From NCBI GenBank assembly GCA_020349685.1, contig CP070698.1, forward strand, positions 1,632,537 to 1,665,329: a stretch of 32,793 bases of DNA. Reading direction: 5' to 3'. The translations under genes and the position numbers were made by a program. The notes beneath the pieces were generated by a model, which did not search any database, was not told the DNA's origin, and worked only from the letters and a program-made list of their open reading frames with translations. Position 1 is the stretch's first letter. Every line of letters starts with the position of its first letter. Shown here in pieces: positions 396 to 31,501 of this stretch. The DNA comes from a bacterium. GTDB taxonomy: Bacteria; BMS3Abin14.

Positions 396-475
396 GACGC
401 AGCACGCAGCACCCAGAACGCAGTGGTAATTCAAATGAGTAGTTTAAACTGCGTCCTGTGTCCTGTGTTCTGCGT
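396..475. repeat. Inverted pair of 4x7-nt arrays (GACGCAG CACGCAG CACCCAG AACGCAG / ACTGCGT CCTGTGT CCTGTGT TCTGCGT) around a 24-nt AT-rich spacer
   Basis: Arms 396-423 and 448-475 are both 28 nt. Unit-by-unit pairing gives 6-7 bp helices (including one G.U and one mismatch) separated by single mismatches. Located between the DUF503 stop (388-390) and the rbfA ATG (485). Confidence 0.9.
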
Positions 476-484
476 ACTGCTTTT

Positions 485-847
485 ATGAGCCGCACCTTCA
501 GTTACAAAAGATCCGACAGGGTCAGTGAACTCCTCAAGCACGAGCGTTCGGATATCATCCGCAAGGAGGCCAAGGATCCGGCCATCGGCGAGATAACGAT
601 CACGCGGATCAAGTTAAGTGACGATCTGAGGTCCGCGACGGTCTATTTCGGTGTCCTGGACCGGACCACCGAGATCTTGCAGGCCGAGGAGGGGCTTGGG
701 AGGGCCAGCAGCTACATCCACCGTCTTCTCGGGAAGCGCCTGAGGCTCAAACACATTCCGAAGCTGACCTTTGCCTTCGATCGGAACCTCGATTACAGTT
801 TCCGGATTTCGAAACTCCTGAGCGAGATAGAAGAAGAAGGTGACTGA
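485..847 (+). CDS. rbfA: Ribosome-binding factor A
   Basis: Translation (SYKRSDRVSELLKHE...ITITRIKLSDDLRSATVYF...LRLKHIPKLTFAFD) is a clear RbfA. The ORF track opens at GTG 458, inside the repeat; ATG 485 gives the canonical N-terminus. Confidence 0.9.
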   Translation: MSRTFSYKRSDRVSELLKHERSDIIRKEAKDPAIGEITITRIKLSDDLRSATVYFGVLDRTTEILQAEEGLGRASSYIHRLLGKRLRLKHIPKLTFAFDRNLDYSFRISKLLSEIEEEGD

Positions 848-1796
848 TCTGGCCAGGATGAGAAAGAAAAGGGACGACCAGGGTTCCAATGTCCAGGGTG
901 TCCTGATCGTCGACAAACCGGAAGGCCTCACCTCCCATGATGTGGTTCAAAAGGTGAGGCGGGCTTTTTCCACACGGCAGGTAGGGCATGCCGGGACCCT
1001 GGATCCCATCGCTTCCGGCGTCCTGGTCCTCCTTGTCGGATCCGCCACCCGCATCGCCCAGTACCTGCAGGAGGACGACAAGGAATATCATCTGGTCATG
1101 AAACTGGGCATTGAAACCGACACGCAGGATATAACGGGCGAGATCCTTAAGCAGAAGGATCTCGCCGGCGTCACCGAGGAAAACCTGGTTTCGGCCATCA
1201 GCAGGTACAGGGGAACCTTCTCCCAGGTGCCGCCCTCCTTCTCGGCTGTCAAGAGGTCAGGAAAACCGCTTTACCGGCTCGCCCGGCAGGGTGTGCGGAT
1301 CCAGGCCGATCCGCGGGAGGTCACGGTGTACGATATCGAAGTGTCCAGGGTAGACCTGCCCCACGTCTGGATGAAGGTCGTCTGTTCCAAGGGCACCTAC
1401 ATGAGGACCCTTTGCCACGATATAGGCCGTGACCTTGGTGTGGGGGGGTGCATGGAGTCTCTGGTAAGGGCCAGGAGCGGGCGGTTTTCCATGGAGGATG
1501 CGGTTTCGCTTGATGATGTGACAAGGGACCCTGTGCCGGAAAAGTGGCTCAGGCAGGCGGCCGACGGACTGGGTTTTCCTGTTACGGAACCCGGTGACGA
1601 GGATCTCATGAGGCTCGTTTCGGGCACCCGCATTCGCTGCGACGACTGCAGGCGGGAAGGACTGGTCTCGGTAACGAGGAAAGGACGGCTCATCGCCCTG
1701 GCCCAGGCTATGAAGACGGAAGGAACGGTCATGCTCTCCCCGCGAAGGGTGCTTGAGCCTGATCTTAAAGAACTTTTCAAACAAATGGATAAATGA
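840..1796 (+). CDS. truB: tRNA pseudouridine(55) synthase TruB
   Basis: GVLIVDKPEGLTSHDVV...GHAGTLDPIASGVLVLLVG catalytic motif region. Overlaps the rbfA stop by 8 nt. ATG 858 is an alternative start. Confidence 0.95.
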   Translation: MTDLARMRKKRDDQGSNVQGVLIVDKPEGLTSHDVVQKVRRAFSTRQVGHAGTLDPIASGVLVLLVGSATRIAQYLQEDDKEYHLVMKLGIETDTQDITGEILKQKDLAGVTEENLVSAISRYRGTFSQVPPSFSAVKRSGKPLYRLARQGVRIQADPREVTVYDIEVSRVDLPHVWMKVVCSKGTYMRTLCHDIGRDLGVGGCMESLVRARSGRFSMEDAVSLDDVTRDPVPEKWLRQAADGLGFPVTEPGDEDLMRLVSGTRIRCDDCRREGLVSVTRKGRLIALAQAMKTEGTVMLSPRRVLEPDLKELFKQMDK

Positions 1797-1828
1797 TATA
1801 CATCTGATTTTCGGAAGGAGGAAACACT

Positions 1829-2098
1829 ATGCCGCTCAGCAGTGAATCGAAGCGGGAGATCATCGACGGAAACAGGCTCCACGAGAGCGATACGGGATCA
1901 TCCGAGGTCCAGATCGCCCTTTTATCCAAGCGAATTGACGAACTTACCGAGCACTTCAAGGTCCACAGCAAGGACCATCATTCCCGTGTCGGTCTATTAA
2001 AGCTCGTCGGCCGCAGGCGCCGTTTGCTCAACTATCTGAGAACGACGGATATCGAGAGATATCGATCTATCGTGAAGAAGTTGGGCCTCCGCAGATAG
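1829..2098 (+). CDS. rpsO: 30S ribosomal protein S15
   Basis: 89 aa, ...[53 protein letters not shown] upstream. Confidence 0.97.
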
Positions 2099-2132
2099 CC
2101 CCTCAATACCATTACATTCCAGGAGTTCCATA

Positions 2133-4247
2133 ATGAAGCAACAGGTACAGCTTGAGTGGGGCGGGAGGACCATTTCCCTAGAGACAGGTGCCGTGGCCAG
2201 ACAGGCCAACGGCGCTGTTTGGGCAAAATACGCCGACACGGTCGTTCTGGCCACAGCAGTCGCCATGCCTGAACCGAGGGAAGGCGTGGATTTTCTTCCC
2301 CTCACGGTCAACTATCAGGAGAAGACCTACGCCGCCGGCAAGATTCCCGGCGGTTTTTTTAAGAGAGAAGGCCGTCCTACCGAAAAGGACACGCTCACAA
2401 GCCGTCTCATCGACCGGTCCATCAGACCCCTGTTCCCCAAGGGTTTCAACCATGAGGTCCAGATCATCATCAATATCCTCTCGGTGGATCGCGAGAACGA
2501 CCCGGACATCCTGTCCCTGATCGCCTCCTCGGCGGCTCTCATCGTGTCGGACATCCCTTTCGACAGTTCAGTGGGAGCCGTGCGCGTGGGCTTTTCCGAG
2601 GGCGGTTTTCTGCTCAACCCCACCTTCGCCCAGCTCGAGAACAGCAAAATGGACCTCATCGTGGCAGGAACCAGCGAGGCGGTCATCATGGTGGAAGGTG
2701 AGGCCAGAGAGGCCTCCGAGGAGGAGATGCTTCAGGCCCTCGAGTTCGCCCACGGAGAGATCCGGAAGGTCATCGAGATCCAGCGGCAGCTGGCGTCTAT
2801 GGCCGGCAAGCAGAAATGGGATTTTCAGTCCCCTGCCGTGGACGAAGATCTCGAGAGGACCGTGGATCAGTTTTGCCGGGCAGAGATGGCCGAAGCTCTG
2901 AGGATCCCCGAAAAACAGGCCCGCAGGGATCGCCTTTCAGAGATCCGGGACCAGACTGTCTTTGAATACGGCCTCAGTGAAGACGGTGAATCCCTCGCGG
3001 GTCAGATCGACGACACCCTCAGGTCCATGGAAAAGGAGCTGATGCGGGCCATGATCCTGCAGGAGGAACACAGGATCGATGGCCGCAGGCCCGATGAGAT
3101 CCGGGACATCACCTGCGAGGTCGGCGTCCTCCCGAGAGCTCACGGCAGCGCCCTTTTCACCAGAGGGGAGACCCAGGCCCTCGTCGTTACCACCCTCGGC
3201 ACCAAGGACGATGAGCAGATCATCGACGCCCTGGAAAAGGACTACCGGCGAAAGTTCATGCTGCATTACAACTTCCCGCCCTTTTCCACCGGAGAGGCCA
3301 AATTCCTCCGGGGAGCGAGCAGGCGCGAGATCGGGCACGGCAACCTGGCCCAGAGGAGCCTCACATCCATCCTTCCCTCTAAAGAGGATTTTCCCTATAC
3401 CGTCAGGATCGTTTCAGAGGTCCTCGAGTCCAACGGTTCCTCCTCCATGGCCACTGTGTGCGGGGGAAGCCTCTCCCTCATGGACGCGGGCGTACCGGTC
3501 GCCAAGCCCGTGGCCGGTATCGCCATGGGGTTGATCTTTACACCCGAAAAATCGGTGGTCCTGTCCGATATCCTCGGGGCTGAGGATCACCTCGGTGACA
3601 TGGATTTCAAGGTCGCGGGCACCCGCGACGGTATCACCGCCTTCCAGATGGACCTGAAGATCGCCGGTGTGAGCCGGGAAGTCATGGCCCTGGCGCTCAA
3701 CCAGGCAAGGGACGGAAGGAACCACATCCTCGATGTCATGGACGCGACCCTCGGCCGCGCCCGTGATTCCATATCGCATTACGCCCCCCGCATCATCACC
3801 ATCCACGTTAAACCCGACAAGATAAGGGAGATCATCGGCCCCGGCGGCAAGGTGATCCGTTCCATTGTCGAGCAGACGGGTGTCAAGGTGGAGGTGGAAG
3901 ACGACGGTACCGTCCTCATTGCCTCCGCCGACGAGGCCGCCTCCCAAAGGGCTCTCGAAATGATACAGGCCATCGTTGAGGAGCCCGAGATCGGAAGGAT
4001 ATACAGGGGCACCGTGAAGAAGATCATGGATTTCGGAGCTTTCGTGGAGGTGGTCACCGGAACGGACGGCCTGGTCCACATCTCGCAGCTGGCCGATCAC
4101 CGTGTGGCCAAGGTCGAGGACGTGGTCAAGGAAGGGGATGTTGTAAACGTCAAGGTCCTGGATATCGACCGAGACGGCAAGATCCGCCTGAGTATCAAGG
4201 AGGCTGAAAAAGAACTGGGATCCGGCGGCCAATCGGACCCCAAATGA
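2133..4247 (+). CDS. pnp: Polyribonucleotide nucleotidyltransferase (PNPase)
   Basis: 704 aa with two RNase PH-like halves, KH (IGPGGKVIRSI) and S1 (GRIYRGTVKKIMDFGAFVE) domains. Canonical rpsO-pnp synteny. Confidence 0.98.
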   Translation: MKQQVQLEWGGRTISLETGAVARQANGAVWAKYADTVVLATAVAMPEPREGVDFLPLTVNYQEKTYAAGKIPGGFFKREGRPTEKDTLTSRLIDRSIRPLFPKGFNHEVQIIINILSVDRENDPDILSLIASSAALIVSDIPFDSSVGAVRVGFSEGGFLLNPTFAQLENSKMDLIVAGTSEAVIMVEGEAREASEEEMLQALEFAHGEIRKVIEIQRQLASMAGKQKWDFQSPAVDEDLERTVDQFCRAEMAEALRIPEKQARRDRLSEIRDQTVFEYGLSEDGESLAGQIDDTLRSMEKELMRAMILQEEHRIDGRRPDEIRDITCEVGVLPRAHGSALFTRGETQALVVTTLGTKDDEQIIDALEKDYRRKFMLHYNFPPFSTGEAKFLRGASRREIGHGNLAQRSLTSILPSKEDFPYTVRIVSEVLESNGSSSMATVCGGSLSLMDAGVPVAKPVAGIAMGLIFTPEKSVVLSDILGAEDHLGDMDFKVAGTRDGITAFQMDLKIAGVSREVMALALNQARDGRNHILDVMDATLGRARDSISHYAPRIITIHVKPDKIREIIGPGGKVIRSIVEQTGVKVEVEDDGTVLIASADEAASQRALEMIQAIVEEPEIGRIYRGTVKKIMDFGAFVEVVTGTDGLVHISQLADHRVAKVEDVVKEGDVVNVKVLDIDRDGKIRLSIKEAEKELGSGGQSDPK

Positions 4248-4262
4248 CCCTTATTCCGCCGG

Positions 4263-5985: not shown

Positions 5986-5987
5986 AA

Positions 5988-6068
5988 TAGTGTCTGGTCT
6001 CTGGTTCTAGTGTCTGGTAACGGCTTTATGCCCGATGTTATTACTAGAACAAGAAACTAGAACTAGAC
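5988..6068. repeat. Inverted arrays of the GTCTGGT/CTAGT family (left 5988-6018, right 6043-6068)
   Basis: Left arm tagtGTCTGGT CTCTGGT TCTAGT GTCTGGT; right arm ACTAGAA CAAGAAA CTAGAA CTAGAC. Starts 3 nt after the dut stop. Confidence 0.85.
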
Positions 6069-6104
6069 GCTATTTTTCAACGCGGTTCTTTTTCGGAGCA
6101 TTTT

Positions 6105-6887
6105 TTGAAAAATCTTATCGGCGTCAGCGCCCTGGCAAGCGGAAGCAAGGGCAATTCCATCCTCATCGACGGGCCCGACGGGTCGCTGATCGTCGACGCG
6201 GGCCTCAGCGCCAGGGAGATCACCCGGCGTCTGGAAGTCATGGGGGCCCCTCTCGACAGATTGTCAGGGATCCTCGTGACCCATGACCACTCTGATCATC
6301 TGCGCGGGGTGCGGGTGTTGGCCAAGCGCCTGGGACTGACCGTTTACGGCACAGCGGATACCCTCAAGGCTGCGGGCCTCGATGGTGAAACCCCATTGGA
6401 AGTGGTCAGATCCGGTGTGGATTTCGAGGTGGCAGGTTTTACGGTCAGACCCTTTTCCCTGCCTCACGACGCTGAGGACCCTGTGGGCTACCTCCTGGCC
6501 ATGGGCACGGTTAAGATCGGTATCGCCACGGACCTGGGCTGCGCGACAGCCCTGGTCAGGAGGCGGCTGGCCGGCTGTGATATGCTGATCCTGGAATCCA
6601 ATTACGAGGAGAAGATGCTTCTTCAAGGACCTTACCCCTGGTTCCTGAAGCAGCGGATACAGGGCCGGATGGGGCACCTTTCCAACGAGGATTCTTCGCA
6701 GATCCTGGGCGAACTTCTCCACCCGGGCCTGCAAAGCGTGATCCTGGCCCATCTCAGCGAGGTCAACAACTGTCCCGGGGCCGCCCTTGAGAGGGCGGAG
6801 GGGGCCGTGGGAGGCCGGAACAACGGCGTGAGGATCACCGCCGCCTCTATGGCGGAGCCGACGGAGATGTTTTATATAGAAAAGTGA
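6105..6887 (+). CDS. MBL-fold metallo-hydrolase
   Basis: HxHxDH motif (THDHSDHLRG) plus downstream D/H ligand positions. TTG start per ORF track. Confidence 0.85.
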   Translation: MKNLIGVSALASGSKGNSILIDGPDGSLIVDAGLSAREITRRLEVMGAPLDRLSGILVTHDHSDHLRGVRVLAKRLGLTVYGTADTLKAAGLDGETPLEVVRSGVDFEVAGFTVRPFSLPHDAEDPVGYLLAMGTVKIGIATDLGCATALVRRRLAGCDMLILESNYEEKMLLQGPYPWFLKQRIQGRMGHLSNEDSSQILGELLHPGLQSVILAHLSEVNNCPGAALERAEGAVGGRNNGVRITAASMAEPTEMFYIEK

Positions 6888-7085
6888 TTGGTAATTAGTG
6901 ATTAGTGATTGGGTAAAAATATATTCAAGTTCTATTGTATAGTGAATTATTGATCACAAGTCACTGATCACCAATCGCTGTTGAGAATTGACTGGGTATA
7001 GGTATTAATTGATCGGAATAAATAACAGCGGGTTCTTGAATATTAGCGACTAACCAATCTCCAGTCACTAATCACAAATCACTGG
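6884..7085. repeat. Three-arm heptamer repeat region (GTGATTR family)
   Basis: Arm 1, 6884-6911: GTGATTG GTAATTA GTGATTA GTGATTG (contains the MBL stop TGA 6885-6887). Reverse-complement-type arms at 6949-6976 (TTGATCA CAAGTCA CTGATCA CCAATC) and 7051-7085 (..CACTAAT CACAAAT CACTGG). The last arm ends 20 nt before the purB ATG. Confidence 0.9.
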
Positions 7086-7105: not shown

Positions 7106-8410
7106 ATGATCCCTCGCTACACCCGACCAGAGATGGCCGCCATCTGGGAACCGGAGAACAGGTTCCGCATCTGGCTCAAGGTGGAGATCGCGGCCTGCGA
7201 AGCCTGGAACAGGCTGGGCCGTATCCCTGACGAGGCCCTGGAAGTGATCAGGGAGCGGGCGGATTTTGACATCGACCGCATCGATGAGATCGAAGAGGAG
7301 GTCAAGCACGACGTTATCGCCTTCCTGACCTCCGTTGCCGAGAAGGTTGGTCCGGAATCGAGATTCATCCACATCGGGATGACCAGCTCCGACGTCCTGG
7401 ACACATCCTTCGGGGTGCAGCTGGTCCAGGCAGGGGAACTGATCATTAAAGGCCTGGAAAAGGCCAGGATCGCGGTCCGTTCCAAGGGGCTCGAGCACCG
7501 GGATACGGTGATGATGGGCCGCTCCCACGGGATGCACGCCGAGCCCACGACTTTCGGGCTCAAGATGGCTATCTGGTACGAGGAGCTGGGACGGGCCCTT
7601 GACCGGATGCGGCAGGCCGTGGAAGCGGTGGCTGTAGGCAAGATCTCCGGGGCCGTGGGGACCTACTCCAACATCCCGCCCGAATTAGAGGCGCACGTCT
7701 GCAAGAGCCTCGGTCTTGTTCCGGCCAAGGCAGCGACCCAGATCCTCCAGCGGGACCGGCACGCGCAATACATGACGGCACTGGCCCTGACGGCTTCCAG
7801 CATCGAGAAGTTTGCCGTCGAGATCCGCCATCTCATGAGGACGGAGGTCCGAGAGGTCCAGGAGGCCTTTACAAAGGGGCAGAAGGGTTCTTCGGCCATG
7901 CCCCACAAGAAGAACCCCATCCTTTCGGAGAATCTCACGGGTCTTGCCAGGCTCATCCGGGGATACTGTCTCTCGGCCATGGAAAACATCCCCCTCTGGC
8001 ATGAGCGGGACATCAGCCACTCCTCGGTCGAACGGGTCATTTTCCCTGACGCCACCATCGTGATGGATTTCATGCTCCACCGTTTCACCTCGCTGGTGGA
8101 GGGGCTTGTGGTGGATGCCAGGATGATGCGGCGCAACATGGAGCTTTCCGGAGGAACGACCTTTTCACAGACCCTCCTCCTGGCTCTGGTGGACAAGGGG
8201 ATAACGCGCGAGGAGGCTTACGCCATCGTTCAGCGCAATGCCCACCAGGCGCTGGATTCCGGACGCCCCTTCTCTGATCTTGTCAGGGAGGATCCCGCGG
8301 TAGCCAAGGCCCTTGATCCCGCGGCCCTCGACTCGGTCTTCGATCCCGCCGCCATGCTCAAACGAACGGAGATAATCTTCGAAAGGGTGTTCGGGGAATA
8401 CAGTGACTAG
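7106..8410 (+). CDS. purB: Adenylosuccinate lyase
   Basis: 434 aa, MIPRYTRPEM..IW; fumarate-lyase signature region GSSAMPHKKNP. AAGGAG RBS. Confidence 0.97.
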   Translation: MIPRYTRPEMAAIWEPENRFRIWLKVEIAACEAWNRLGRIPDEALEVIRERADFDIDRIDEIEEEVKHDVIAFLTSVAEKVGPESRFIHIGMTSSDVLDTSFGVQLVQAGELIIKGLEKARIAVRSKGLEHRDTVMMGRSHGMHAEPTTFGLKMAIWYEELGRALDRMRQAVEAVAVGKISGAVGTYSNIPPELEAHVCKSLGLVPAKAATQILQRDRHAQYMTALALTASSIEKFAVEIRHLMRTEVREVQEAFTKGQKGSSAMPHKKNPILSENLTGLARLIRGYCLSAMENIPLWHERDISHSSVERVIFPDATIVMDFMLHRFTSLVEGLVVDARMMRRNMELSGGTTFSQTLLLALVDKGITREEAYAIVQRNAHQALDSGRPFSDLVREDPAVAKALDPAALDSVFDPAAMLKRTEIIFERVFGEYSD

Positions 8411-8590
8411 GTGAAGAAAAGCGGTGACTAGGTAACTATGTGACTAGGTACCTAGGTATCCAGGTACCCGGGTACCTGGATCTGTAAATGTCTCAATACA
8501 TGAGCACCTAGATACATAGACACTTAAATACTTAGAAACATAGACACTTAGATACATAGATACGTAGATACGTAGATACATGGACACTCA
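8403..8590. repeat. Repeat region: 3x GTGACTAGGT, 4x 8-mers (ACCTAGGT ATCCAGGT ACCCGGGT ACCTGGAT), then 11x 8-mers of the GAYACNTA family (8503-8590)
   Basis: Contiguous 8-nt units read directly: AGCACCTA GATACATA GACACTTA AATACTTA GAAACATA GACACTTA GATACATA GATACGTA GATACGTA GATACATG GACACTCA. The first GTGACTAG contains the purB stop. The array ends 22 nt before the purL GTG. Confidence 0.92.
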
Positions 8591-11591: not shown

Positions 11592-11596
11592 AAAGC

Positions 11597-11720
11597 AGGA
11601 TTCAGAAGCCAGAATCCAGGAGCCAGAATAAGATCGATTTCTTTTATTGAAAGGACGTTGCATCGAGTCTGTTTTATCTTCTGAATTCTGAATTCTGAAT
11701 TCTGAATTCTGGATTCCTGA
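11597..11720. repeat. Inverted heptamer arrays: left 5 units (AGGATTC AGAAGCC AGAATCC AGGAGCC AGAATAA), right 6 units (TTCTGAA x4, TTCTGGA, TTCCTGA)
   Basis: Left arm 11597-11631 starts 6 nt after the purL stop. Right arm 11679-11720 abuts the purQ SD (GAGGAG 11719-11724). Shifted by 3 nt the left arm reads TTCAGAA GCCAGAA TCCAGGA GCCAGAA, and TTCTGAA is the reverse complement of TTCAGAA. Confidence 0.92.
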
Positions 11721-12584: not shown

Positions 12585-12919
12585 GCGACGAAACGACTGA
12601 GCGACGAAGCGAAGGCGCAACTGAGGTTACCACTCAAATCCAAAACCCAAAATCCGATGCGTCCGAGCAGCTAGAGTCAAATGACAATTCACAAAGGCTG
12701 ATTCAACAGGGATAAAAGGGATACAGGGGATAAGGAACGACGTTAATGCGTGCGAGCGTATGAGCGTGAAGGGTGAAAAGGCAGGGAATCTGCAGGCTGA
12801 CACACCCACGCACTACGTATCCACGAAACCACATGGTTTTCCATCCCCTTCATCCCTGTTAAATGAAAATATTTAAGGTTCAATCTGAAACGTGAAACTT
12901 GAAACCTGAAACCCTAACG
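12585..12919. repeat. Composite repeat region in the 377-nt purQ-purF spacer
   Basis: Sub-arrays: AAAYCC 7-mers 12636-12656; AGGGATA family 12707-12737; 4x 8-mers GCGTGCGA GCGTATGA GCGTGAAG GGTGAAAA 12748-12779; CAC-rich 8-mers 12801-12832; reverse-complement AGGGAT-type arm 12838-12864; CTGAAAC GTGAAAC TTGAAAC CTGAAAC 12885-12912, abutting the purF SD. Confidence 0.85.
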
Positions 12920-20187: not shown

Positions 20188-20257
20188 ATCTGGTGTCTAG
20201 TGTCTGGTGTCTGGAGAAACCGCTTGACACGCTGACGCGGAGACACGGGGATACGTT
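20188..20257. repeat. Heptamer array ATCTGGT GTCTAGT GTCTGGT GTCTGGA (20188-20215) followed by 8-mer array GACACGCT GACGCGGA GACACGGG GATACGTT (20226-20257)
   Basis: Read directly. GACAC is the reverse complement of GTGTC, so the two arrays are partly complementary. Starts 3 nt after the GGDEF-like gene stop. Confidence 0.85.
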
Positions 20258-20353: not shown

Positions 20354-21856
20354 ATGCGCACCATAGTAATCCTTCTGCTCGTTCTTATTCTGCCCCTTCC
20401 CCTCTTCGCCCAGGATGCGGGCAAGGCTCCGGTAAGCCTCCAGACGGAGGAGTGCCTCGGTTGCCACATCATCGTCACACCGGGGATCGTCAAGGATTGG
20501 GAGAAAAGCCGTCACTCCCGGACGGTGCCTGCGGAGGCTCTCAAGAAGGACAAGCTGACCCGACGGATATCCTCCGAGTCCATCCCCGAGGCATACGCGA
20601 AGGTGGCTGTGGGCTGCTACGAATGCCACGGCCAGAACACGGACCGGCACGCGGACAGTTTCGAGCACAACGGCTACACGATCAACGTCATCGTGTCCCC
20701 CACGGACTGCTCCACATGCCACGCCGTGGAGGCCCGCCAGTACAGCGGAACCAAGAAGGCCATGGCCCACGGGAACCTGGTCGACAACCCCCTGTACATG
20801 ACCCTCGCCAACTCCATACTCGGCCACAAATCCTGGGTTGATGGAGACCTCAAGGCAGCCCCGGCAAGCAGCAACTCCCTCAGCGAGACGTGCCTGGGAT
20901 GCCACGGCACCAGGATAGAGGTAAGGGGGATGAAGACCATTGATACAGACCTCCTGGGGGAGATCCAGGTTCCGGACCTGGCTGGATGGCCCAACGAGGG
21001 GGTCGGGCGCATCAACCCGGACGGCAGCTTTGGTTCCTGTACGGCCTGCCATCCACGCCACTCCTTTTCCATCGAGATCGCCCGCAAACCCTACACCTGC
21101 GCCCAGTGCCATCTGGAGCCGGATGTCCCGGCCTGGAACGTCTACAAGGAAAGCAAGCACGGCAATATCTATCTTTCGAAAAAACACACATGGAACTTTG
21201 AAAACGTACCGTGGGTGCTGGGGGAGGACTTTACAGCGCCCACATGCGCGGTTTGCCATAACAGCCTGATAACGAACCCGGACGGGGAAGTTCTGGCCGA
21301 GAGGACTCACGATTTCGGAAGCCGCCTCTGGGTGCGCCTTTTCAGCCTTATTTACAGCCATCCCCAGCCGCGTAAGGGAGATGTCACCGTTATCCGGAAC
21401 GCCGACGGCCTTCCCCTGCCCACCACCTTTGCCGGCGAACCGGCTATGGAGTATCTCATCGATGAAGCGGAGCAGGATAGGCGCAAGGCCAGCATGAGTG
21501 CTGTCTGCGGAGGCTGTCACAGCACTGACTGGTACACCTCTCACTTCGACAAGATGGACCGCACCATCGAGGAGGTGGACCGCATGGTGCACACGTCGAC
21601 CCGGGTCATGCAGTCGGCCTGGGATGAGGGCCTGGCCGATGCCGGCAACCCCTTCGACGAAGCTCTCGAAAAGAGGTGGGCACTTCAGTGGCTGTTCTAC
21701 GCCAATTCCATCAAGTATTCCTCCGCGATGACGGGGGCGCCCGATTACGCCACTTTCAAGAACGGCTGGTGGGAGCTTTCGAGGAACCTGGAGGAGATGA
21801 AGGAGCTAATGGAACTTAAGAGAAGTACCCAGTACTCAGTACCCGGTACCAAGTAG
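20354..21856 (+). CDS. Secreted octaheme c-type cytochrome, probably hydroxylamine-oxidoreductase (HAO)-like family
   Basis: Signal peptide plus exactly 8 CxxCH motifs (CLGCH, CYECH, CSTCH, CLGCH, CTACH, CAQCH, CAVCH, CGGCH). Size (~500 aa) and motif spacing resemble HAO-type octahemes. Family assignment is from memory, not a search. Confidence 0.85.
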   Translation: MRTIVILLLVLILPLPLFAQDAGKAPVSLQTEECLGCHIIVTPGIVKDWEKSRHSRTVPAEALKKDKLTRRISSESIPEAYAKVAVGCYECHGQNTDRHADSFEHNGYTINVIVSPTDCSTCHAVEARQYSGTKKAMAHGNLVDNPLYMTLANSILGHKSWVDGDLKAAPASSNSLSETCLGCHGTRIEVRGMKTIDTDLLGEIQVPDLAGWPNEGVGRINPDGSFGSCTACHPRHSFSIEIARKPYTCAQCHLEPDVPAWNVYKESKHGNIYLSKKHTWNFENVPWVLGEDFTAPTCAVCHNSLITNPDGEVLAERTHDFGSRLWVRLFSLIYSHPQPRKGDVTVIRNADGLPLPTTFAGEPAMEYLIDEAEQDRRKASMSAVCGGCHSTDWYTSHFDKMDRTIEEVDRMVHTSTRVMQSAWDEGLADAGNPFDEALEKRWALQWLFYANSIKYSSAMTGAPDYATFKNGWWELSRNLEEMKELMELKRSTQYSVPGTK

Positions 21857-21906: not shown

Positions 21907-21963
21907 GTGGAGATCCAGATTATCCGGTTTCCGGTGTCCAGAAAAGGTAGAACGCATTATATA

Positions 21964-21991
21964 AACCTCAAACATCAAACCTCAAACTTTC
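21964..21991. repeat. 4x7-nt array AACCTCA AACATCA AACCTCA AACTTTC
   Basis: Read directly. Lies immediately 3' of the minus-strand lipoprotein gene stop (21994-21996). Confidence 0.8.
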
Positions 21992-21993
21992 CT

Positions 21994-22752
21994 CTACGGC
22001 TTAGGCACTTCTTCTTGGTACGGGGTACTGGGTACCGGGTACTGCTTTTCCGGTACCCTCCCCAGCATCCTGTCGAAGGCCCTGGACAGCGGGATGATCT
22101 CGGTCTCATAGGAGATGCGGCGTCCTGGAAACCTCGCGATGCGTCTTCCGGCGGCGGGATCGACAAAGACGATGTTGGTTTCCAGAAAAGAGGGGGGAGC
22201 CTGATACTGCTCCCTGCCTTTGCTCAGAAGTCCGGTGACGAGGCTCTGCACCAGATTCTCACCTGTGCTGTGATATTCGCCGTAGCCATGGGCCAGGACC
22301 AGGAGGTCCGCTCCCAGCTTCTCAGCGATAAGGGCAGCGCCGGCCATCCCTTCCTCATGGGGAGCGGTCCGGTCAGCTCCCATCAGACCCTGGGAGGCAG
22401 CCAGGCTGATGAAGGCTTCGGCCAGGTCCTCCTCCTCCATAAGCCTCTCGCTGAGATCATCCGGTGACAGCACCTGGTACCCTTTGTAGCGCGTCACTAT
22501 CGAGAGTGCCTCCTGCACCTTTCCTCCCATCTGATCAGACAACTCCGTGTCCTCGGAGGTGAAGGGCGGTCTCCCTGTGGCGATGATCATCCTGACAGGC
22601 AGCACCGCGACAGTATCGTAGAGGGATGCGTCCCAGAGGGGCGGAGGGGGTGTGTAGGTGCCGGCGCAACCGGTAACGAGGAGAAGGGGGCAAGTAAAGA
22701 GGATAAGGAAAAGAAATTTAATGGCCGCTGCTTTCATGGAATTATTGTACAT
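21994..22752 (-). CDS. Hypothetical lipoprotein
   Basis: Signal peptide with lipobox LLVTGC; 252 aa; no family recognised. The last ~12 codons are encoded by the NNGGTAC heptamer array at 22015-22042. ATG at 22737 is an alternative start. Confidence 0.75.
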   Translation of the reverse strand: MYNNSMKAAAIKFLFLILFTCPLLLVTGCAGTYTPPPPLWDASLYDTVAVLPVRMIIATGRPPFTSEDTELSDQMGGKVQEALSIVTRYKGYQVLSPDDLSERLMEEEDLAEAFISLAASQGLMGADRTAPHEEGMAGAALIAEKLGADLLVLAHGYGEYHSTGENLVQSLVTGLLSKGREQYQAPPSFLETNIVFVDPAAGRRIARFPGRRISYETEIIPLSRAFDRMLGRVPEKQYPVPSTPYQEEVPKP

Positions 22753-22776: not shown

Positions 22777-22811
22777 GTGTCTAGAGTCTGGAATCTAGAG
22801 TCTAGACTCCA
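22777..22811. repeat. 5x7-nt array GTGTCTA GAGTCTG GAATCTA GAGTCTA GACTCCA (partly self-complementary via TCTAGA cores)
   Basis: Read directly. Fills most of the 62-nt gap between the helicase stop and the lipoprotein start on the minus strand. Confidence 0.85.
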
Positions 22812-24197: not shown

Positions 24198-24526
24198 GGG
24201 TTGTTTTTCCTTTATATTCTGAAAACTTCAATGCTGTGGGAGTTTAGGGTAATCGGGAGGGTGTGTCAACGGTGCATCATCCTGTTTACCTTTGTCATTC
24301 CGGAAATCGCATGAAGAACCGTGCGATTATCCGAAATCCATTTTCACCAGCAATTCCTTCAAATCTGTTAATTTAACAGGGATGAAGGGGATAAATGGGA
24401 TGGGAAAAGAAGTTTCAACCTTTTACGTCGCAGTTGTCGGTTTGTTTGTTACAGTTTCATTGGGCGTTAGACGTCAGGCGACTTTCTTCCTCTGGACTCT
24501 ACACACTACACTCTGGACTCCACACA

Positions 24527-25485: not shown

Positions 25486-25495
25486 GATGGCCTCC

Positions 25496-27249: not shown

Positions 27250-27284
27250 GATCTTAAGATCTCAAATCTCAGATCTCAAAGTTC
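27250..27284. repeat. 5x7-nt array GATCTTA AGATCTC AAATCTC AGATCTC AAAGTTC
   Basis: Read directly. In the 5' leader region (minus sense) of the DUF2318/ABC operon, about 10 nt beyond its SD. Confidence 0.85.
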
Positions 27285-27857: not shown

Positions 27858-27986
27858 TTGAATTTGTCAGGTATACTTGATCTTTATTACGACCGGCTCG
27901 TCTGGGAGTTACGATGGATTATTATCCGTAACAAATACATGAAAGTGTTGGGGGGCCGCCTGCACTGAAATTGTCGAATGATAAAA

Positions 27987-28048
27987 GGTGAACGGTAAAC
28001 GGTGAACCGAAAAGACCTCTCCAGACACTAGAACCAGACACCAGATAC
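27987..28048. repeat. GGTGAAC GGTAAAC GGTGAAC (27987-28007), then CCAGACA CTAGAAC CAGACAC CAGATAC (28021-28048)
   Basis: Read directly. 28021-28038 is an 18-nt exact reverse complement of 6000-6017. Confidence 0.88.
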
Positions 28049-28098: not shown

Positions 28099-28126
28099 TT
28101 GACATCCCTCCCTCGCGGGTTAAATT
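28099..28126 (+). promoter_or_regulatory. Putative promoter for hsp20
   Basis: TTGACA (28099-28104), 16-nt spacer, TAAATT (28121-28126). It would give an ~80-nt AU-rich leader. Confidence 0.4.
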
Positions 28127-28206: not shown

Positions 28207-28650
28207 ATGACAGCTAACATCAGATCACCTTTCAGAGAGTTGATGGCCCTTCAGGACCGGATGAACCGGATCTTCGACAGCAGCGTTCACGGCGAGGGAA
28301 CCGGCGAGGAGATGGAGTCCGCGGCCTGGACACCGGCTGTGGACATATACGAGACCAAGGACGCCATCATGGTCAACGTCGAGGCTCCCGGCATGAGCAG
28401 GGACCAGTTCTCCGTCGAGGTTAAGGACGACGTGCTGAACCTCAAGGGGGAGCGTCCCTTTGAAAAGGACGTGTCCAGGGAGCATTATCACCGGATCGAA
28501 AGGGCTTACGGTAAGTTCCGCAGGTCCTTCATCCTGGGTGTGCCCATCAACAACGAGGGGATCACGGCAGCCTACAGGGACGGTGTCCTGGAGATCGTCC
28601 TGCCCAAGGTGGAAGAGGCGAAAGCCAGGAAAATAGAGATTACGGAATAA
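28207..28650 (+). CDS. Hsp20/alpha-crystallin family small heat-shock protein
   Basis: 147 aa. WTPAVDIYETKD...VEAPGM...ERAYGKFRRSF.L...I.A.Y.DGVLEIVLPK. Strong AAGGAGG RBS. Confidence 0.95.
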   Translation: MTANIRSPFRELMALQDRMNRIFDSSVHGEGTGEEMESAAWTPAVDIYETKDAIMVNVEAPGMSRDQFSVEVKDDVLNLKGERPFEKDVSREHYHRIERAYGKFRRSFILGVPINNEGITAAYRDGVLEIVLPKVEEAKARKIEITE

Positions 28651-28772
28651 AGAATCGGGAATGAGGAATAGGGAAGAGGGAAGGTAGAATTTGACATTTA
28701 TGCACAAGTCAGCAGGTGCGGCAGTGATCTGTCTCACGGGATTTCATTCCCTGTTCCCTATTCCCTGTTTTA
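28645..28772. repeat. Inverted heptamer arrays: 7 units GAATAAA GAATCGG GAATGAG GAATAGG GAAGAGG GAAGGTA GAATTTG (28645-28693) and CATTCCC TGTTCCC TATTCCC TGTTTTA (28745-28772)
   Basis: Read directly. The hsp20 stop TAA (28648-28650) lies in unit 1. The right arm ends 15 nt before the dnaJ ATG. The left arm carries five GGA motifs. Confidence 0.9.
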
Positions 28773-29891: not shown

Positions 29892-30296
29892 ATGCGTGGC
29901 GATGAAAAGGTGACAAGTATCGCCGGGATCTGCCGCAGACTGGGCATTCAGCCCGTCGAACTTGAGGCCATGGAGGAGGAGGGCCTCATCACCCTGGCGG
30001 CCGTAAGAGACGGGAAAGCGCTGCCTTCCGAACAGCTGGACCGGTTGGAGATGATCCTACGGCTTCAGCGCGATCTTAGCATAAATCTGGCAGGGATCGA
30101 TGTCATACTAGAGATGCGCGCCAAGATGATCCAGATGCGTGAGGAGGTCGATGACATCCTCGAATTCATAAGGCGCCGTATCTCCAGTGATCTCAGGGAG
30201 ATGCTGGGCGAGGAGGATTTCCCCATGGCGCTGGGTCCGGGGGATGAATTCCTTTCCATCGGGAAAGGAAAGGCAGGCAAGCGCCGAATTGATTAA
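29892..30296 (+). CDS. MerR_2/CbpM-like chaperone-modulatory protein
   Basis: 134 aa, 3 nt after dnaJ. ICRRLGIQPVELEAMEEEGLI and LQRDLSINLAGIDVILEMRAKMIQMREEV resemble E. coli CbpM ([29 protein letters not shown]). Confidence 0.65.
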   Translation: MRGDEKVTSIAGICRRLGIQPVELEAMEEEGLITLAAVRDGKALPSEQLDRLEMILRLQRDLSINLAGIDVILEMRAKMIQMREEVDDILEFIRRRISSDLREMLGEEDFPMALGPGDEFLSIGKGKAGKRRID

Positions 30297-30408
30297 TCGG
30301 TTCTCCCGGCTTCCCTGCCGAGGGTGTGAGTGGAAATGGGGGCGAAAGGGAGAAAGAGCTTAACGTCCAAATAAGAGGGATAAAAAAGACGGCTGACAGC
30401 GGATTGTT

Positions 30409-30443
30409 TTTGAATCCTGAATTTTGAATGATGAATAGTGAGG
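30409..30443. repeat. 5x7-nt array TTTGAAT CCTGAAT TTTGAAT GATGAAT AGTGAGG
   Basis: Read directly. The last unit contains the htpX SD (GAGG). Same TGAAT core as the purL-purQ spacer array. Confidence 0.85.
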
Positions 30444-30453
30444 TAACCTGATT

Positions 30454-31296
30454 ATGAGTAACGTTTTAAAGACAACCTTCCTTCTCGGAGCCCTGACGGG
30501 GCTGCTTCTCCTTTTCGGACAGGTCTTCGGGGGACGCACCGGGATGATCATCGCCTTCGGTTTCGCCGTGGTCATTAACTTCGGCAGCTACTGGTTCAGC
30601 GACAGGATCGTTCTGGCCCTCTACCGCGCCAAGCCTGTGACCGAATCGGACGACCCGGAGCTCATCTCCATCGTCCGGAACCTGGCCACAAGAGCGGGTC
30701 TGCCCATGCCGAGGGTTTTCCGGATACCCCAGCCGACCCCCAACGCTTTTGCGACCGGAAGGAACCCCCAGAACGCCGTTGTGGCGGTGACCGATGGCAT
30801 CCGGAGCCTCCTCACACCGGATGAGCTTGCGGGAGTGATCGGGCACGAACTGGCCCACATCGGCCATCGGGATATCCTCATCTCCTCCATCGCGGCCACG
30901 CTGGCAGGTGCCATCATGATGCTGGCCAACATGGCCCGGTGGGCCCTGATTTTCGGAGGCGGCAGAGACGAGGACAGCAACCCCGTCGGTGCTCTTCTGA
31001 TGGCCATACTGGCTCCCATTGCTGCCATCATCATCCAGATGGCGGTATCGCGTTCCAGGGAGTATCAGGCCGATCAGACCGGTGCCAGGATCGCCGGGAA
31101 CCCCGAAAGCCTGGCGTCAGCCCTGGAGAAACTGACGATGGCATCGAAAAGGGTCCCTATGGCATCGAACCCTGCCACAAGCCACATGTTCATCGTGAAA
31201 CCGTTCTCCGGCAGGAGCGTGATCGCACTCTTTTCCACCCACCCGCCCGTGGAGAAGCGTGTTCAGCGCCTGCGGGAGATGAAACGGGGAAGGTAG
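30454..31296 (+). CDS. htpX: Zinc metalloprotease HtpX (M48)
   Basis: 280 aa. 2+2 TM topology, HELAHIGHRD (HExxH), downstream EYQAD. Confidence 0.93.
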   Translation: MSNVLKTTFLLGALTGLLLLFGQVFGGRTGMIIAFGFAVVINFGSYWFSDRIVLALYRAKPVTESDDPELISIVRNLATRAGLPMPRVFRIPQPTPNAFATGRNPQNAVVAVTDGIRSLLTPDELAGVIGHELAHIGHRDILISSIAATLAGAIMMLANMARWALIFGGGRDEDSNPVGALLMAILAPIAAIIIQMAVSRSREYQADQTGARIAGNPESLASALEKLTMASKRVPMASNPATSHMFIVKPFSGRSVIALFSTHPPVEKRVQRLREMKRGR

Positions 31297-31316
31297 CCAA
31301 GGTGTCGAGGTAACAA

Positions 31317-31501
31317 CGTACCTAAGTATCTATGCAACCAGGTATCTAGGAATTATTTGCGTCGTTGACACTTCGATACCCAGACACTTGGACACTTGGA
31401 TACCTAGATACCTAGACACGTAGACACTTAGACACTAGATATGTAGATACCTAGACACGTAGACACTTAGACACGCAGACACTTACATACATAGATACAT
31501 G
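31317..31501. repeat. Left 8-mers GTACCTAA GTATCTAT GCAACCAG GTATCTAG (31318-31349), then 17 contiguous units of the GAYACNTA family (31367-31501)
   Basis: Units: GACACTTC GATACCCA GACACTTG GACACTTG GATACCTA GATACCTA GACACGTA GACACTTA GACACTA GATATGTA GATACCTA GACACGTA GACACTTA GACACGCA GACACTTA CATACATA GATACATG. A 29-nt block is exactly duplicated (31407-31435 = 31446-31474). Confidence 0.93.

What the first reader, a model, noticed from the sequence alone, without database searches (positions are those of the whole stretch)
396..31501. Window-wide system of degenerate 7/8-nt tandem arrays that bridge stop codons to the next RBS
At least 15 intergenic gaps carry runs of 3-17 contiguous, imperfect 7- or 8-nt units. 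The loci are 396-475, 5988-6068, 6884-7085, 8403-8590, 11597-11720, 12585-12919, 20188-20257, 21824-22042, 22777-22811, 24376-24405, 27250-27284, 27987-28048, 28645-28772, 30409-30443 and 31317-31501. At co-directional junctions the first arm starts in, or within about 6 nt of, the upstream stop codon (MBL, purB and hsp20 stops lie inside unit 1; DUF503, dut, purL and GGDEF stops lie 3-6 nt before). At five of these junctions a reverse-complement-type arm ends 9-22 nt before the next start or touches its SD (rbfA, purB, purL, purQ, dnaJ). Single-orientation arrays at purF and htpX likewise abut or contain the SD. Folded as RNA, this would place the stop codon and the next ribosome-binding site at the base of a long mismatch-punctuated hairpin. 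That suggests structure-mediated translational coupling, mRNA stabilisation or thermosensing. Unit sequence differs between loci but families recur. All unit lengths I saw are 7 or 8, apart from occasional 6-nt units in the 5988-6068 arrays, and I saw no arrays with a 6- or 9-nt period. Most families contain TGA/TAG/TAA, so three consecutive units close all three frames; the ACGCAG arms at 396-475 are an exception. The only analogues I know are cyanobacterial STRR heptamer repeats and REP/BIME elements. I am not aware of this stop-to-start inverted architecture being described.
Basis: partly seen in the sequence, partly recalled or inferred. Interest (0 to 1): 0.75.

Follow-up and report, generated by a model that had tools for sequence, protein, structure and literature searches.

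The report
Intergenic inverted heptamer/octamer repeat arrays
The gaps between genes in this uncultured sediment bacterium are packed with fast-changing runs of 7-8-base repeats, usually as inverted pairs; the pattern is real but of a kind already seen in Xanthomonas, Geobacter and cyanobacteria, and nothing here shows it couples translation.

Summary
The arrays are real. Tandem Repeats Finder recovers almost all 15 loci. Intergenic autocorrelation peaks at lags 7, 8 and 14 (z = 6-8), while coding DNA shows only period 3. Inverted arms pair far better than shuffled controls. Eight syntenic relatives, plus six shorter metagenome contigs covering the DUF503-rbfA junction, show the same thing.

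Three sub-claims fail:
- 9-nt and 6-nt units exist.
- Stop codons are not enriched in units (33 of 85 observed, 38 expected).
- The architecture has been described before: Xanthomonas GGGAATC convergent pairs and G. metallireducens paired tandem repeats, including MTYCTGA.

Hairpin potential is the same on both strands. Mismatches split G:T 85 versus A:C 83, and z-scores are equal on sense and antisense. So there is no mRNA-specific signature for translational coupling or thermosensing.

The arrays behave as hypermutable DNA repeats:
- Two near-clonal strains differ by whole units, changed in both arms together.
- One entire stop-to-start cassette is swapped between those strains.
- Arms that share the same irregularity are dispersed among spacers.

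Verdict: a new, very dense, multi-family member of a known kind of repeat. Function is unproven. A REP-like effect on mRNA remains possible.

The parts
397..423 (.). Left arm, ACGCAGC x3.9, 6 nt after the DUF503 stop (388-390)
448..480 (.). Right arm, ACTGCGT/CTGTGTC x4.7, ending 4 nt before the rbfA ATG at 485
5990..6018 (.). Left arm, GTCTGGT-type units with one 6-nt unit; the same irregular arm recurs at 20189, at 28021 (reverse complement) and in L084
6043..6067 (.). Right arm, ACTAGAAC-type units (inverted partner of 5990-6018)
6883..6915 (.). Left arm, AGTGATT x4; the MBL stop TGA (6885-6887) lies in unit 1
6951..6978 (.). Inner array of GATCAC/GTCAC units within the loop
   Evidence: read directly
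7051..7083 (.). Right arm, AATCACT-type units, 82% complementary to 6883-6915; ends about 10 nt before the purB SD
8403..8477 (.). Octamer array GTGACTAG/GGTACCTA; the purB stop (8408-8410) lies inside the first unit
8496..8587 (.). Octamer array TAGATACA x about 11, inverted relative to 8423-8477. The cassette is present only in a subclade; relatives have a 1-3 nt purB-purL spacer
11596..11628 (.). Left arm, CAGAAGC/CAGAATC x about 4.7, 4 nt after the purL stop
11679..11716 (.). Right arm, TTCTGAA x5.4 (the same unit as G. metallireducens class 3 MTYCTGA); touches the purQ SD GAGGAG
12585..12612 (.). Octamer array GCGACGAA x3.5 in the purQ-purF spacer
12633..12655 (.). Short CAAAACC-type array
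   Evidence: read directly
12701..12733 (.). 9-nt array AACAGGGATAAAAGGGATACAGGGGATAA (left arm of the GGGAT element)
12843..12864 (.). Right arm of the GGGAT element, ATCCCCTTCATCCCTGTTAAAT
12885..12913 (.). Heptamer array CTGAAAC x4.1, single orientation, abutting the purF SD
20189..20214 (.). TCTGGTG x3.7, 3 nt after the GGDEF stop
20226..20255 (.). Octamer-like GACACGCT/GACGCGGA/GACACGGG units
   Evidence: read directly
21818..21856 (.). AGTACCC x4.6; encodes the C-terminal tail of the multihaem cytochrome; left arm of an 85%-complementary, 39-nt pair
21963..21987 (.). AAACCTC x3.6, single array between the convergent genes
22011..22049 (.). GGTACTG x4; right arm, inside the 3' end of the convergent minus-strand ORF
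22777..22811 (.). GTCTAGA x4, a self-complementary array (TCTAGA palindrome)
24376..24405 (.). Solo arm of the 9-nt GGGAT element (TTAACAGGGATGAAGGGGATAAATGGGAT)
24496..24525 (.). ACTCTAC x4.3
27250..27284 (.). ATCTCAA x3.1 in a divergent intergenic region
27982..28007 (.). TAAACGG x3.7
28021..28045 (.). CCAGACA x3.7 (reverse complement of the TCTGGTG arm family); lies 5' of the promoter-like site at 28099-28126
28632..28682 (.). GGGAATA-type x7 (resembles Xanthomonas GGGAATC); contains the hsp20 stop (28648-28650)
28744..28769 (.). TTCCCTG x3.3, inverted partner, just upstream of dnaJ
30408..30436 (.). TTTTGAA/TCATGAA x3, single orientation, upstream of htpX
31317..31353 (.). Octamer left arm, GTACCTAA/GTATCTAT
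31367..31498 (.). Octamer array GACACTTA/TAGATACC x15, much longer than its partner arm

Best explanation
These are DNA-level, hypermutable short-unit tandem repeats. They are heptamer/octamer simple-sequence arrays with some 6- and 9-nt units, and they occupy nearly all free intergenic DNA of this lineage, mostly as inverted ('foldback') pairs and sometimes nested.

Shown here:
- They gain and lose whole units.
- Both arms of a pair can change together.
- Arms with the same internal irregularity are copied among spacers.
- A whole cassette can be replaced between near-clonal strains.

Inferred:
- Units change by replication slippage.
- Arms are kept alike by template switching between the arms (quasipalindrome correction) or ectopic conversion, not by selection on an mRNA helix.
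- The arrays abut the stop codon and the SD because purifying selection trims them only where they hit coding sequence or the ribosome-binding site. The 'stop-to-RBS bridge' is therefore a passive boundary effect.

Because they are transcribed inside operons they must form imperfect hairpins in mRNA. They may have REP-like side effects on stability or processing, but no dedicated translational function is indicated.
For: Whole-unit change: L082 and L083 are 98.1% identical over 20 kb, and 37 of their 38 indels lie in the intergenic spacers that carry the arrays, many of them whole-unit changes.

Concerted arms: in their MBL-purB spacer the left arm loses 7 nt, the central GTGCAC array 16 nt and the right arm 7 nt, with no substitutions.

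Cassette swap: their DUF503-rbfA spacer is entirely replaced (a CAGAATC cassette against a GCGGATT cassette), while the flanking 150 nt differ at one base on each side.

Turnover at one site: the same spacer carries at least 8 unrelated unit families across 15 genomes.

Copying between spacers: an irregular arm, GTCTGGT-TCTAGTGTCTGG, with its 6-nt unit in the same place, recurs at window 5988, 20189 and 28021 (reverse complement) and in L084. Two L086 spacers 6.6 kb apart share one nested composite, 76% identical over about 200 nt.

Strand symmetry: G:T 85 against A:C 83 mismatches with 126 transversions. z-scores are equal on both strands and the energy difference is explained by composition.

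Other points: arm lengths can be very unequal (31317-31353 against 31367-31498). Arrays occur at convergent and divergent junctions and run into CDS tails where no in-frame stop intervenes. Period-7/8 arrays of three or more copies are otherwise absent from coding DNA here. The same kind of array occurs across phyla: TTCTGRA x3 in at least 120 loci against about 2 expected, and GGGAT 9-mers in Geomonas and Holophagaceae.
Against: - At the DUF503-rbfA junction the architecture is conserved (about 85-97 nt, roughly 4+4 units, a 14-25 nt loop) in 11 of the 15 genomes compared, although the sequence family changes. That looks like selection on structure or a site-specific generating process.
- In the ACGCAGM cassette one genome (L207) has changed C to T in every right-arm unit, turning mismatches into A-T pairs.
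- No enzyme or mechanism for cassette replacement is identified.
- Only about 190 kb of this lineage was examined, not a whole genome.
- The slippage and template-switch steps are inferred from sequence comparisons, not observed.
Confidence: 0.6

Rival explanations
1. Functional intercistronic RNA hairpins. The inverted arrays are selected because the long stem in the polycistronic mRNA protects upstream segments from 3' exonucleases, provides RNase III processing sites, or brings stop and start together for re-initiation.
For: - Stems fold far better than shuffles.
- They sit in spacers without terminator- or promoter-like sites, so they are probably co-transcribed.
- Architecture at DUF503-rbfA is conserved while the sequence family changes.
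- Both arms change together in L082/L083.
- L207 shows a concerted compensatory-looking change.
- rbfA lacks an SD and starts 4-9 nt after the arm in all relatives.
Against: - No wobble asymmetry (85 against 83) and many transversion mismatches; only about 77% of aligned positions are Watson-Crick.
- Equal z-scores on both strands.
- Very unequal arms at 8423-8587, 28632-28769 and 31317-31498.
- Single-orientation arrays are common.
- Arrays also occur at convergent and divergent junctions and 5' of a promoter-like site.
- The cassette in purB-purL interrupts a 1-3 nt junction that is already tightly coupled in relatives.
Confidence: 0.2
2. Arrays of protein-binding sites. Candidates are a nucleoid-associated protein (IHF/HU, as proposed for the G. 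metallireducens paired repeats) or a single-strand-binding OB-fold protein (Csp/S1, as proposed for TAACTGA repeats). Each unit would be one binding register.
For: - Regular short units.
- Identical units recur in distant phyla (TTCTGRA; GGGATRAAG; a GGGAAT-like unit at 28632).
- Published proposals exist (PMC2700814; PMC4679880).
- Symmetry on both strands fits DNA binding.
Against: - More than 20 unrelated unit sequences occur within 33 kb, and families swap at one site. That is hard to reconcile with sequence-specific recognition.
- A 7-8 nt period does not match the helical repeat.
- No candidate protein is linked in the window.
Confidence: 0.1
3. Classical non-autonomous transposons (MITE or foldback type). 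Their terminal inverted repeats are built of subrepeats, and they are mobilised in trans by a transposase encoded elsewhere in the genome.
For: - Inverted arms flank unique cores and can be nested.
- Arms sharing the same irregularity are dispersed.
- A composite is duplicated in L086.
- Cassettes show presence/absence between genomes.
- A separate, genuine MITE of about 150 nt is active in the lineage.
Against: - No target-site duplications or fixed termini could be found.
- The L086 composite junction has only its 2 known copies in the complete 2.78-Mb genome.
- GGGAT arms occur in both head-to-head and tail-to-tail configurations in different taxa.
- Loops are unrelated between cassettes of one family.
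- No transposase is present in the window.
Confidence: 0.1

Closest known systems
G. metallireducens paired tandem-repeat sites, classes 1-3 (GTTGCTYN x4, TCTCCGTS(Y) x3, MTYCTGA x5), annotated as putative IHF/HU global-regulator sites (Aklujkar et al. 2009, PMC2700814)
   Same: Intergenic position. Three to five tandem units of 7-9 nt. Pairs on opposite strands at variable distance. Several families in one genome. The class 3 unit MTYCTGA equals the window's TTCTGAA arm at 11679-11716.
   Different: The density here is much higher (about 7 arrays per 10 kb) with many more families. Nesting and cassette swapping were not described there. The IHF/HU role was only proposed, never tested.
Xanthomonas GGGAATC heptamer repeats, with 70-75 convergent inverted pairs per genome (Rehm et al. 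2015, PMC4692102)
   Same: Intergenic heptamer arrays of 2-26 units, degenerate units, and frequent inverted pairs able to form stem-loops. Length and sequence vary between close species at the same junctions. The window's 28632-28682 array is GGGAAT-like.
   Different: Xanthomonas has one G-rich family, interpreted as G-quadruplex-forming. Here there are dozens of families, most not G-rich.
Cyanobacterial STRR heptamers and over-represented long SSRs (Mazel 1990 and Mrazek 2007, both cited from memory and via PMC4692102)
   Same: Tandem heptamers concentrated in non-coding DNA, several unit families, and unknown function. The control Nostoc loci also score high for period-7 arrays, and TTCTGRA arrays are common in Nostoc.
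   Different: STRR arrays are mostly single-orientation; few inverted pairs were found in Anabaena. Here about half of the spacers carry inverted arms.
TAACTGA direct repeats of Beggiatoaceae, cyanobacteria and Bacteroidetes (MacGregor 2015, PMC4679880)
   Same: Heptamer arrays placed within a few nucleotides of start codons, with a patchy cross-phylum distribution of one unit and a suggested post-transcriptional role.
   Different: There it is a single unit and almost always direct, with 1 indirect set among 170. Here there are many units and inverted pairs dominate.
REP/BIME and REPIN elements of enterobacteria and pseudomonads
   Same: Extragenic and often just after stop codons inside operons. 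Inverted doublets form hairpins. Known (from established literature) to stabilise upstream mRNA, which is the most plausible side effect here.
   Different: REP units are 20-40 nt imperfect palindromes with conserved tags, mobilised by RAYT transposases. Here the arms are tandem 7-8 nt units without internal palindromy, and no RAYT link was seen.
MIRU intercistronic repeats of mycobacteria (from memory: Supply et al. 1997)
   Same: Repeats fill operon spacers from stop to start and were proposed to mediate translational coupling.
   Different: MIRUs are 40-100 bp direct units carrying small ORFs that overlap the flanking genes. That is not the case here.

Membership tests
Intergenic long-unit SSR arrays (STRR / heptamer SSR type) | Head-to-tail units of about 5-11 nt (mode 7), three or more copies, degenerate | tested here: met
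   TRF: in the lineage, period 7 = 52 arrays, period 8 = 18, period 9 = 4, period 6 = 2
Intergenic long-unit SSR arrays (STRR / heptamer SSR type) | Confined to non-coding DNA | tested here: met
   Lag-7/8 signal appears only in intergenic DNA. The only coding overlap is in 3' tails at 21824-21856 and 22011-22049
Intergenic long-unit SSR arrays (STRR / heptamer SSR type) | Copy-number polymorphism between close strains | tested here: met
   L082 against L083: whole-unit indels, with 37 of 38 indels in the intergenic spacers that carry the arrays
Paired inverted tandem-repeat sites (Geobacter classes 1-3, Xanthomonas GGGAATC pairs) | Two arrays of the same unit on opposite strands, at close and variable distance | tested here: met
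   (32 of 67 spacers against 0 of 201 shuffles)
Paired inverted tandem-repeat sites (Geobacter classes 1-3, Xanthomonas GGGAATC pairs) | Shared unit consensus (MTYCTGA; GGGAATC) | tested here: met
   TTCTGAA x5.4 at 11679-11716 matches MTYCTGA. GGGAATA/GGGAATG units at 28632-28682. Most other families are different
Paired inverted tandem-repeat sites (Geobacter classes 1-3, Xanthomonas GGGAATC pairs) | Binding by IHF/HU, or G-quadruplex formation | not testable with these tools
   Needs ChIP or biophysics. Most units here lack G-runs
REP/BIME/REPIN | A 20-40 nt imperfectly palindromic unit with a conserved tag | tested here: not met
   Arms are tandem 7-8 nt units. Only the GTGCAC and TCTAGA arrays are self-complementary
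REP/BIME/REPIN | A cognate RAYT transposase in the genome | not testable with these tools
   None in the window; the rest of the genome is not available
MITE / foldback transposon | Terminal inverted repeats | tested here: met
MITE / foldback transposon | Target-site duplication and fixed ends at filled versus empty sites | tested here: inconclusive
   Empty (1-3 nt) and filled purB-purL sites were compared. The ends are blurred and no duplication is recognisable
MITE / foldback transposon | Many near-identical full-length copies per genome | tested here: not met
   The L086 composite junction has only 2 copies in the complete genome CP070719.1. Loops differ between cassettes of one family
Structured cis-regulatory RNA (thermometer, riboswitch, leader) | Match to a curated RNA family | tested here: not met
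   Rfam at gathering threshold finds only two tRNAs
Structured cis-regulatory RNA (thermometer, riboswitch, leader) | Strand-specific conservation of pairing (G:U tolerated, A:C not) | tested here: not met
   G:T 85 against A:C 83; equal z on both strands
MIRU-type coupling repeats | Direct units of 40-100 bp carrying a small ORF that overlaps the flanking stop and start | tested here: not met
   Units are 6-9 nt, and 52 of 85 arrays carry a stop in at least one sense-strand frame

The most novel reading that the evidence does not exclude
The spacers are not junk. On this reading each operon junction in the lineage needs a roughly 90-150 nt foldback cassette (4+4 units, short loop) whose sequence is free but whose architecture is maintained. 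A dedicated or strongly biased process, such as templated arm-to-arm copying plus cassette replacement, would rewrite these cassettes faster than 1% genome divergence. That would be a new kind of 'operon punctuation' acting at the DNA or RNA level. It could explain the unsolved, decades-old heptamer-repeat phenomenon seen in cyanobacteria, Xanthomonas, Geobacter and Beggiatoaceae.
Probability: 0.12. Interest if true: 0.75.

Novelty: new member of a known kind. Interest (0 to 1): 0.35.

Why it matters
Intergenic heptamer and octamer arrays have been catalogued since 1990 in cyanobacteria, and later in Xanthomonas, Geobacter and Beggiatoaceae. They still have no demonstrated function or generating mechanism.

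This lineage is an extreme, multi-family case with good comparative material. It shows directly that:
- Arrays turn over by whole units.
- The two arms of a pair can change together.
- An entire stop-to-start cassette can be exchanged between strains that differ by about 0.4% in flanking genes.

These observations constrain any model, and they argue for a DNA-level process over an mRNA-helix model. They also point to cultured carriers of the same nested architecture, such as Geomonas and G. metallireducens, where experiments are possible.

In practice, such arrays are hotspots of strain variation and of assembly and annotation error. Gene tails at 21824-22049 are array-encoded.

Tried and rejected
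- Exact look-up of the window's PurB found no contig on record. The window's own genome is not in genome contigs; the best relative there is 77% identical.
- The organism could not be named. Relatives are labelled only 'bacterium'. Accession searches in the literature found nothing. A guess of phylum MBNT15/Deferrimicrobiota could not be verified.
- The first raw sense-versus-antisense folding test looked significant (57:26, p=3e-4). I rejected it after composition control and the mismatch-type test.
- Stop-codon enrichment in units was tested and rejected.
- The high-copy mobile-composite idea was tested in a complete genome and rejected for that element.
- The GGGAT 18-mer scan needs care. 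About 69 chance hits are expected in 596 Gb, so only the paired and clustered hits in Geobacterales and Acidobacteriota are meaningful.
- Covariation analysis of the ACGCAGM cassette has too few sequences (4) to be decisive.
- The metagenome scan with RbfA returned only 6 loci.
- The STRR keyword search was swamped by unrelated 'STRRIDE' papers.

Full report
OBSERVATION. I drew a provisional gene map from long ORFs and confirmed it by Pfam and by synteny. With that map, base autocorrelation in the 4.1 kb of intergenic DNA peaks at lag 7 (z=7.3), lag 8 (6.2), lag 14 (7.9), lag 16 (5.2) and lag 24 (7.1) against shuffles. The 28.7 kb of coding DNA shows only period 3. Arrays of period 7/8 with at least 2.8 copies number 23 in the window, or 7.0 per 10 kb. 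The window plus eight syntenic relatives hold 85 in 192 kb. Seventy-nine unrelated purB loci hold 97 in 1.30 Mb, or 0.74 per 10 kb with a median of 0.

Inverted partners are real. The repeat finder lists arm pairs at 396/449, 5993/6043, 6883/7051, 11596/11679, 12701/12843, 21818/22011, 28644/28744 and 31322/31400. In 67 spacers of the lineage, a strand-agnostic stem score of 24 or more occurs in 32, against 0 of 201 shuffles. It still occurs in 12 when the 3' half is reversed, a control that keeps periodicity. ViennaRNA z-scores for five window spacers are -2.8 to -5.3. The arrays cannot be assembly artefacts, because orthologous arrays occur in independent NCBI, JGI and ENA assemblies.

GENE CONTEXT. 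The window carries DUF503-rbfA-truB-rpsO-pnp-M16 peptidase-dut-MBL-purB-purL-purQ-purF. After several unnamed ORFs come a GGDEF protein, a multihaem cytochrome, a convergent ORF and a DEAD-box helicase, followed by tRNA-Glu and tRNA-Gln. Then follow FtsX/MacB, FtrD-like, hsp20, dnaJ, htpX (M48) and an HtrA-like gene. There is no transposase in the window. No plus-strand terminator-like or promoter-like site lies in the spacers from 390 to 13000, which is consistent with co-transcription but does not prove it.

RELATIVES. The window's PurB belongs to a 2.03-Mb contig, and its relatives are labelled only 'bacterium'. Eight syntenic loci with PurB identity of 73-86% were fetched, including the complete 2.78-Mb genome CP070719.1. 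Six further DUF503-rbfA junctions came from metagenomes. Nearly every orthologous spacer carries arrays, but the unit family is not conserved.

At DUF503-rbfA the families are:
- ACGCAGM in the window, L206, L207 and L209.
- TCAGTGA/GATCACG in L205 and L208.
- GTGATTA in L001.
- AGTGAAC in L081.
- CAGAATC in L082.
- GCGGATT in L083.
- TTGAGAA in L084.
- A nested CAGGAGT plus TTGGAAA composite in L086.
- CAGGAGT/ACTGAYT in L210.
- None in L085.

The purB-purL spacer is 1-3 nt in L001, L084, L085 and L086. In the window, L081, L082, L083 and L087 it holds a 143-295 nt octamer cassette (GGTATCTA ... TAGATACC). This is a clade-specific insertion into a formerly tight junction.

DYNAMICS. L082 and L083 are near-clonal. 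They are 98.1% identical over 20 kb, and about 99.6% over the first 10 kb. Thirty-seven of their 38 indels are intergenic. Outside the replaced DUF503-rbfA spacer they fall in the arrays as unit-sized length changes. In the MBL-purB spacer the left arm loses 7 nt, the central palindromic GTGCAC array loses 16 nt and the right arm loses 7 nt, with no substitution anywhere in the spacer. Their DUF503-rbfA spacer is completely different from the third base of the stop codon to the base before the ATG (97 nt against 95 nt, different unit families, different loop). The flanking 150 nt of coding sequence differ at one position on each side. So whole cassettes are exchanged on a time scale of well under 1% divergence.

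Arms are also copied between spacers. The irregular arm GTCTGGT-TCTAGTGTCTGG, with its 6-nt unit in the same place, occurs at window 5988, 20189 and 28021 (reverse complement) and in L084. Two L086 spacers 6.6 kb apart share one nested composite, including the junction between inner and outer arms. That composite is not a high-copy element, though. Its junction has only those two copies in the complete genome.

STRAND SYMMETRY. If the stems were maintained as mRNA helices, mismatches should be biased towards G:U on the transcribed strand. I aligned arms with a scoring scheme blind to strand. That gave 999 Watson-Crick positions, 85 G:T, 83 A:C and 126 transversion mismatches, so there is no bias. 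A raw comparison of folding energies favoured the sense strand (57:26). Shuffled sequences of the same composition show the same offset (-3.6 against -3.0 kcal/mol observed), and mean z-scores are -2.17 (sense) and -2.35 (antisense). The tool's dinucleotide-shuffle z-scores agree. Hairpin potential is therefore a property of the DNA duplex, not of one transcript.

1. Proximity to stops and SDs is confirmed. The best stem begins a median of about 8 nt after the stop and ends about 26 nt before the start. C-termini of DUF503, dut, purL and purQ are conserved right up to the stop, and arrays begin 0-10 nt later in genome after genome.
2. Where a unit has no in-frame stop, the ORF simply reads into the array. 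The cytochrome ends ...STQYSVPGTK* and the convergent ORF ends ...KQYPVPSTPYQEEVPKP*. This is what a passive boundary predicts.
3. 'Most families contain a stop codon' is not supported. Thirty-three of 85 units carry a sense-strand stop, against 38 +/- 3.6 for shuffled units.
4. 'Only 7 or 8' is wrong. 9-nt arrays lie at 12708-12733 and 24379-24401, and 6-nt units occur in L001.
5. Downstream genes keep canonical SDs outside the stems.
6. For thermosensing, Rfam finds nothing. The arrays 5' of hsp20 lie upstream of the only promoter-like site, at 28099-28126.

BEYOND THE LINEAGE, AND THE LITERATURE. The 9-nt element with terminus AACAGGGATRAARGGGAT occurs as close inverted pairs in Geomonas, Citrifermentans, other Desulfuromonadales, Holophagaceae and Pyrinomonadaceae. 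Single hits elsewhere are at chance level, since about 69 are expected. Geomonas propionica shows the full nested architecture directly after a stop codon: GCAAAGGC x7, then GGGATAAAA x3, a loop, and then both in reverse complement. The configuration of the GGGAT arms is head-to-head in some taxa and tail-to-tail in others, which argues against fixed transposon termini. TTCTGRA x3 arrays occur in at least 120 loci from many phyla, against about 2 expected.

Published descriptions match what is seen here:
- G. metallireducens has 'putative global regulator binding sites' made of 3-5 tandem 7-9 nt repeats, in pairs on opposite strands, including MTYCTGA (PMC2700814).
- Xanthomonas has about 185 GGGAATC arrays, with 70-75 convergent inverted pairs and strong interspecies length variation (PMC4692102).
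- Beggiatoaceae have TAACTGA arrays next to start codons (PMC4679880).

MECHANISM. Best supported (about 0.6): these are hypermutable DNA repeats of the heptamer-SSR kind arranged as foldback pairs. Shown here are whole-unit change, concerted arm change, copying among spacers and cassette replacement. Inferred are slippage, arm-to-arm template switching or ectopic conversion, and purifying selection at the CDS and SD boundaries. Together these produce the stop-to-RBS appearance. Three rivals remain:
- Selected intercistronic RNA hairpins (about 0.2). The conserved 4+4-unit, roughly 90-nt architecture at DUF503-rbfA and the compensatory-looking change in L207 favour this. Strand symmetry, 23% mismatches, unequal arms and non-operonic sites count against it.
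- Protein-binding arrays (about 0.1).
- Classical MITEs (about 0.1).

NOVELTY AND LIMITS. The kind is known. The lineage, the density, the multiplicity of families and the documented cassette swap are new details. I examined about 190 kb of the lineage and not a whole genome. All mechanistic steps are inferred from sequence comparison.

Noticed in passing
window 31536-32793 (in-frame TGA at 32013-32015): The HtrA/DegP-like gene reads through the whole region in one frame except for a single in-frame TGA (…[20 protein letters not shown]…). From memory, the equivalent position in E. coli DegP is Gly. This is a pseudogene, a sequencing error or local recoding. TGA is a normal stop elsewhere in the window.
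   Followed up: partly
L081 11381-11560, 18842-18959, 19662-19785; L082 19937-20075, 20127-20230; L085 9571-9733; L208 468-613: A separate dispersed MITE-like element of about 150 nt (GC-rich hairpins, 'GATCAATGAC...GTCATTGATC') is present in several copies in relatives. In L081 it sits inside the loop of the purB-purL array hairpin. BLAST did not find it in the window.
   Followed up: partly
window 1-62: Two direct copies of a motif of about 30 nt, AGGCGCATTGGWTACTGATCCGGGCGCC, lie upstream of DUF503. It shares the GATCCGGGCGCC core with the relatives' MITE-like element.
   Followed up: no
window 458-487 and orthologous sites in L081-L084, L205-L210: rbfA most likely starts at ATG 485, not GTG 458. 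It has no recognisable SD in any relative; the array arm ends 4-9 nt upstream in an A/T-rich stretch.
   Followed up: partly
window 21824-21856 and 21994-22049: The C-terminal tails of the multihaem cytochrome and of the convergent ORF are encoded by the AGTACCC/GGTACTG arrays. A canonical bidirectional terminator (21884-21907) sits between the arms.
   Followed up: yes
window 12701-12864, 24376-24405; L081 MBL-purB; L104 1638-1717; L091 2040-2110: A 9-nt GGGATRAAG array element with a conserved AACAGGGAT end is shared with Geomonas/Geobacteraceae and Holophagaceae/Pyrinomonadaceae, in opposite arm configurations in different taxa. Cross-phylum sharing of the same unit is unexplained.
   Followed up: partly
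L213-L292 (genome-contig scan): Arrays of TTCTGRA x3 occur in at least 120 loci across Nostoc, Verrucomicrobia, Bacteroidetes, Acidobacteriota, Planctomycetota, Chlamydiae, CPR and others, including one array of at least 24 units in a Planctomycetota MAG (L221). Why the same heptamers recur across phyla is unknown.
   Followed up: no
L082 vs L083, whole loci: Divergence is mosaic: about 0.4% in the first 10 kb and about 2.5% in the second 10 kb. This suggests recent recombination within the population and may be how spacer cassettes are exchanged.
   Followed up: partly
window 24532-24720: tRNA-Glu(CTC) and tRNA-Gln(CTG) lie on the minus strand, followed by a strong terminator-like hairpin (24532-24559). 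The long ORF called at 24634-25566 overlaps the tRNAs at its 5' end, so its annotated start is probably wrong.
   Followed up: no
window 8403-8446: The octamer GTGACTAG, which includes the purB stop codon, is repeated at 8403, 8423 and 8439. It looks as if the array was seeded from, or has overwritten, the gene's last codons.
   Followed up: no
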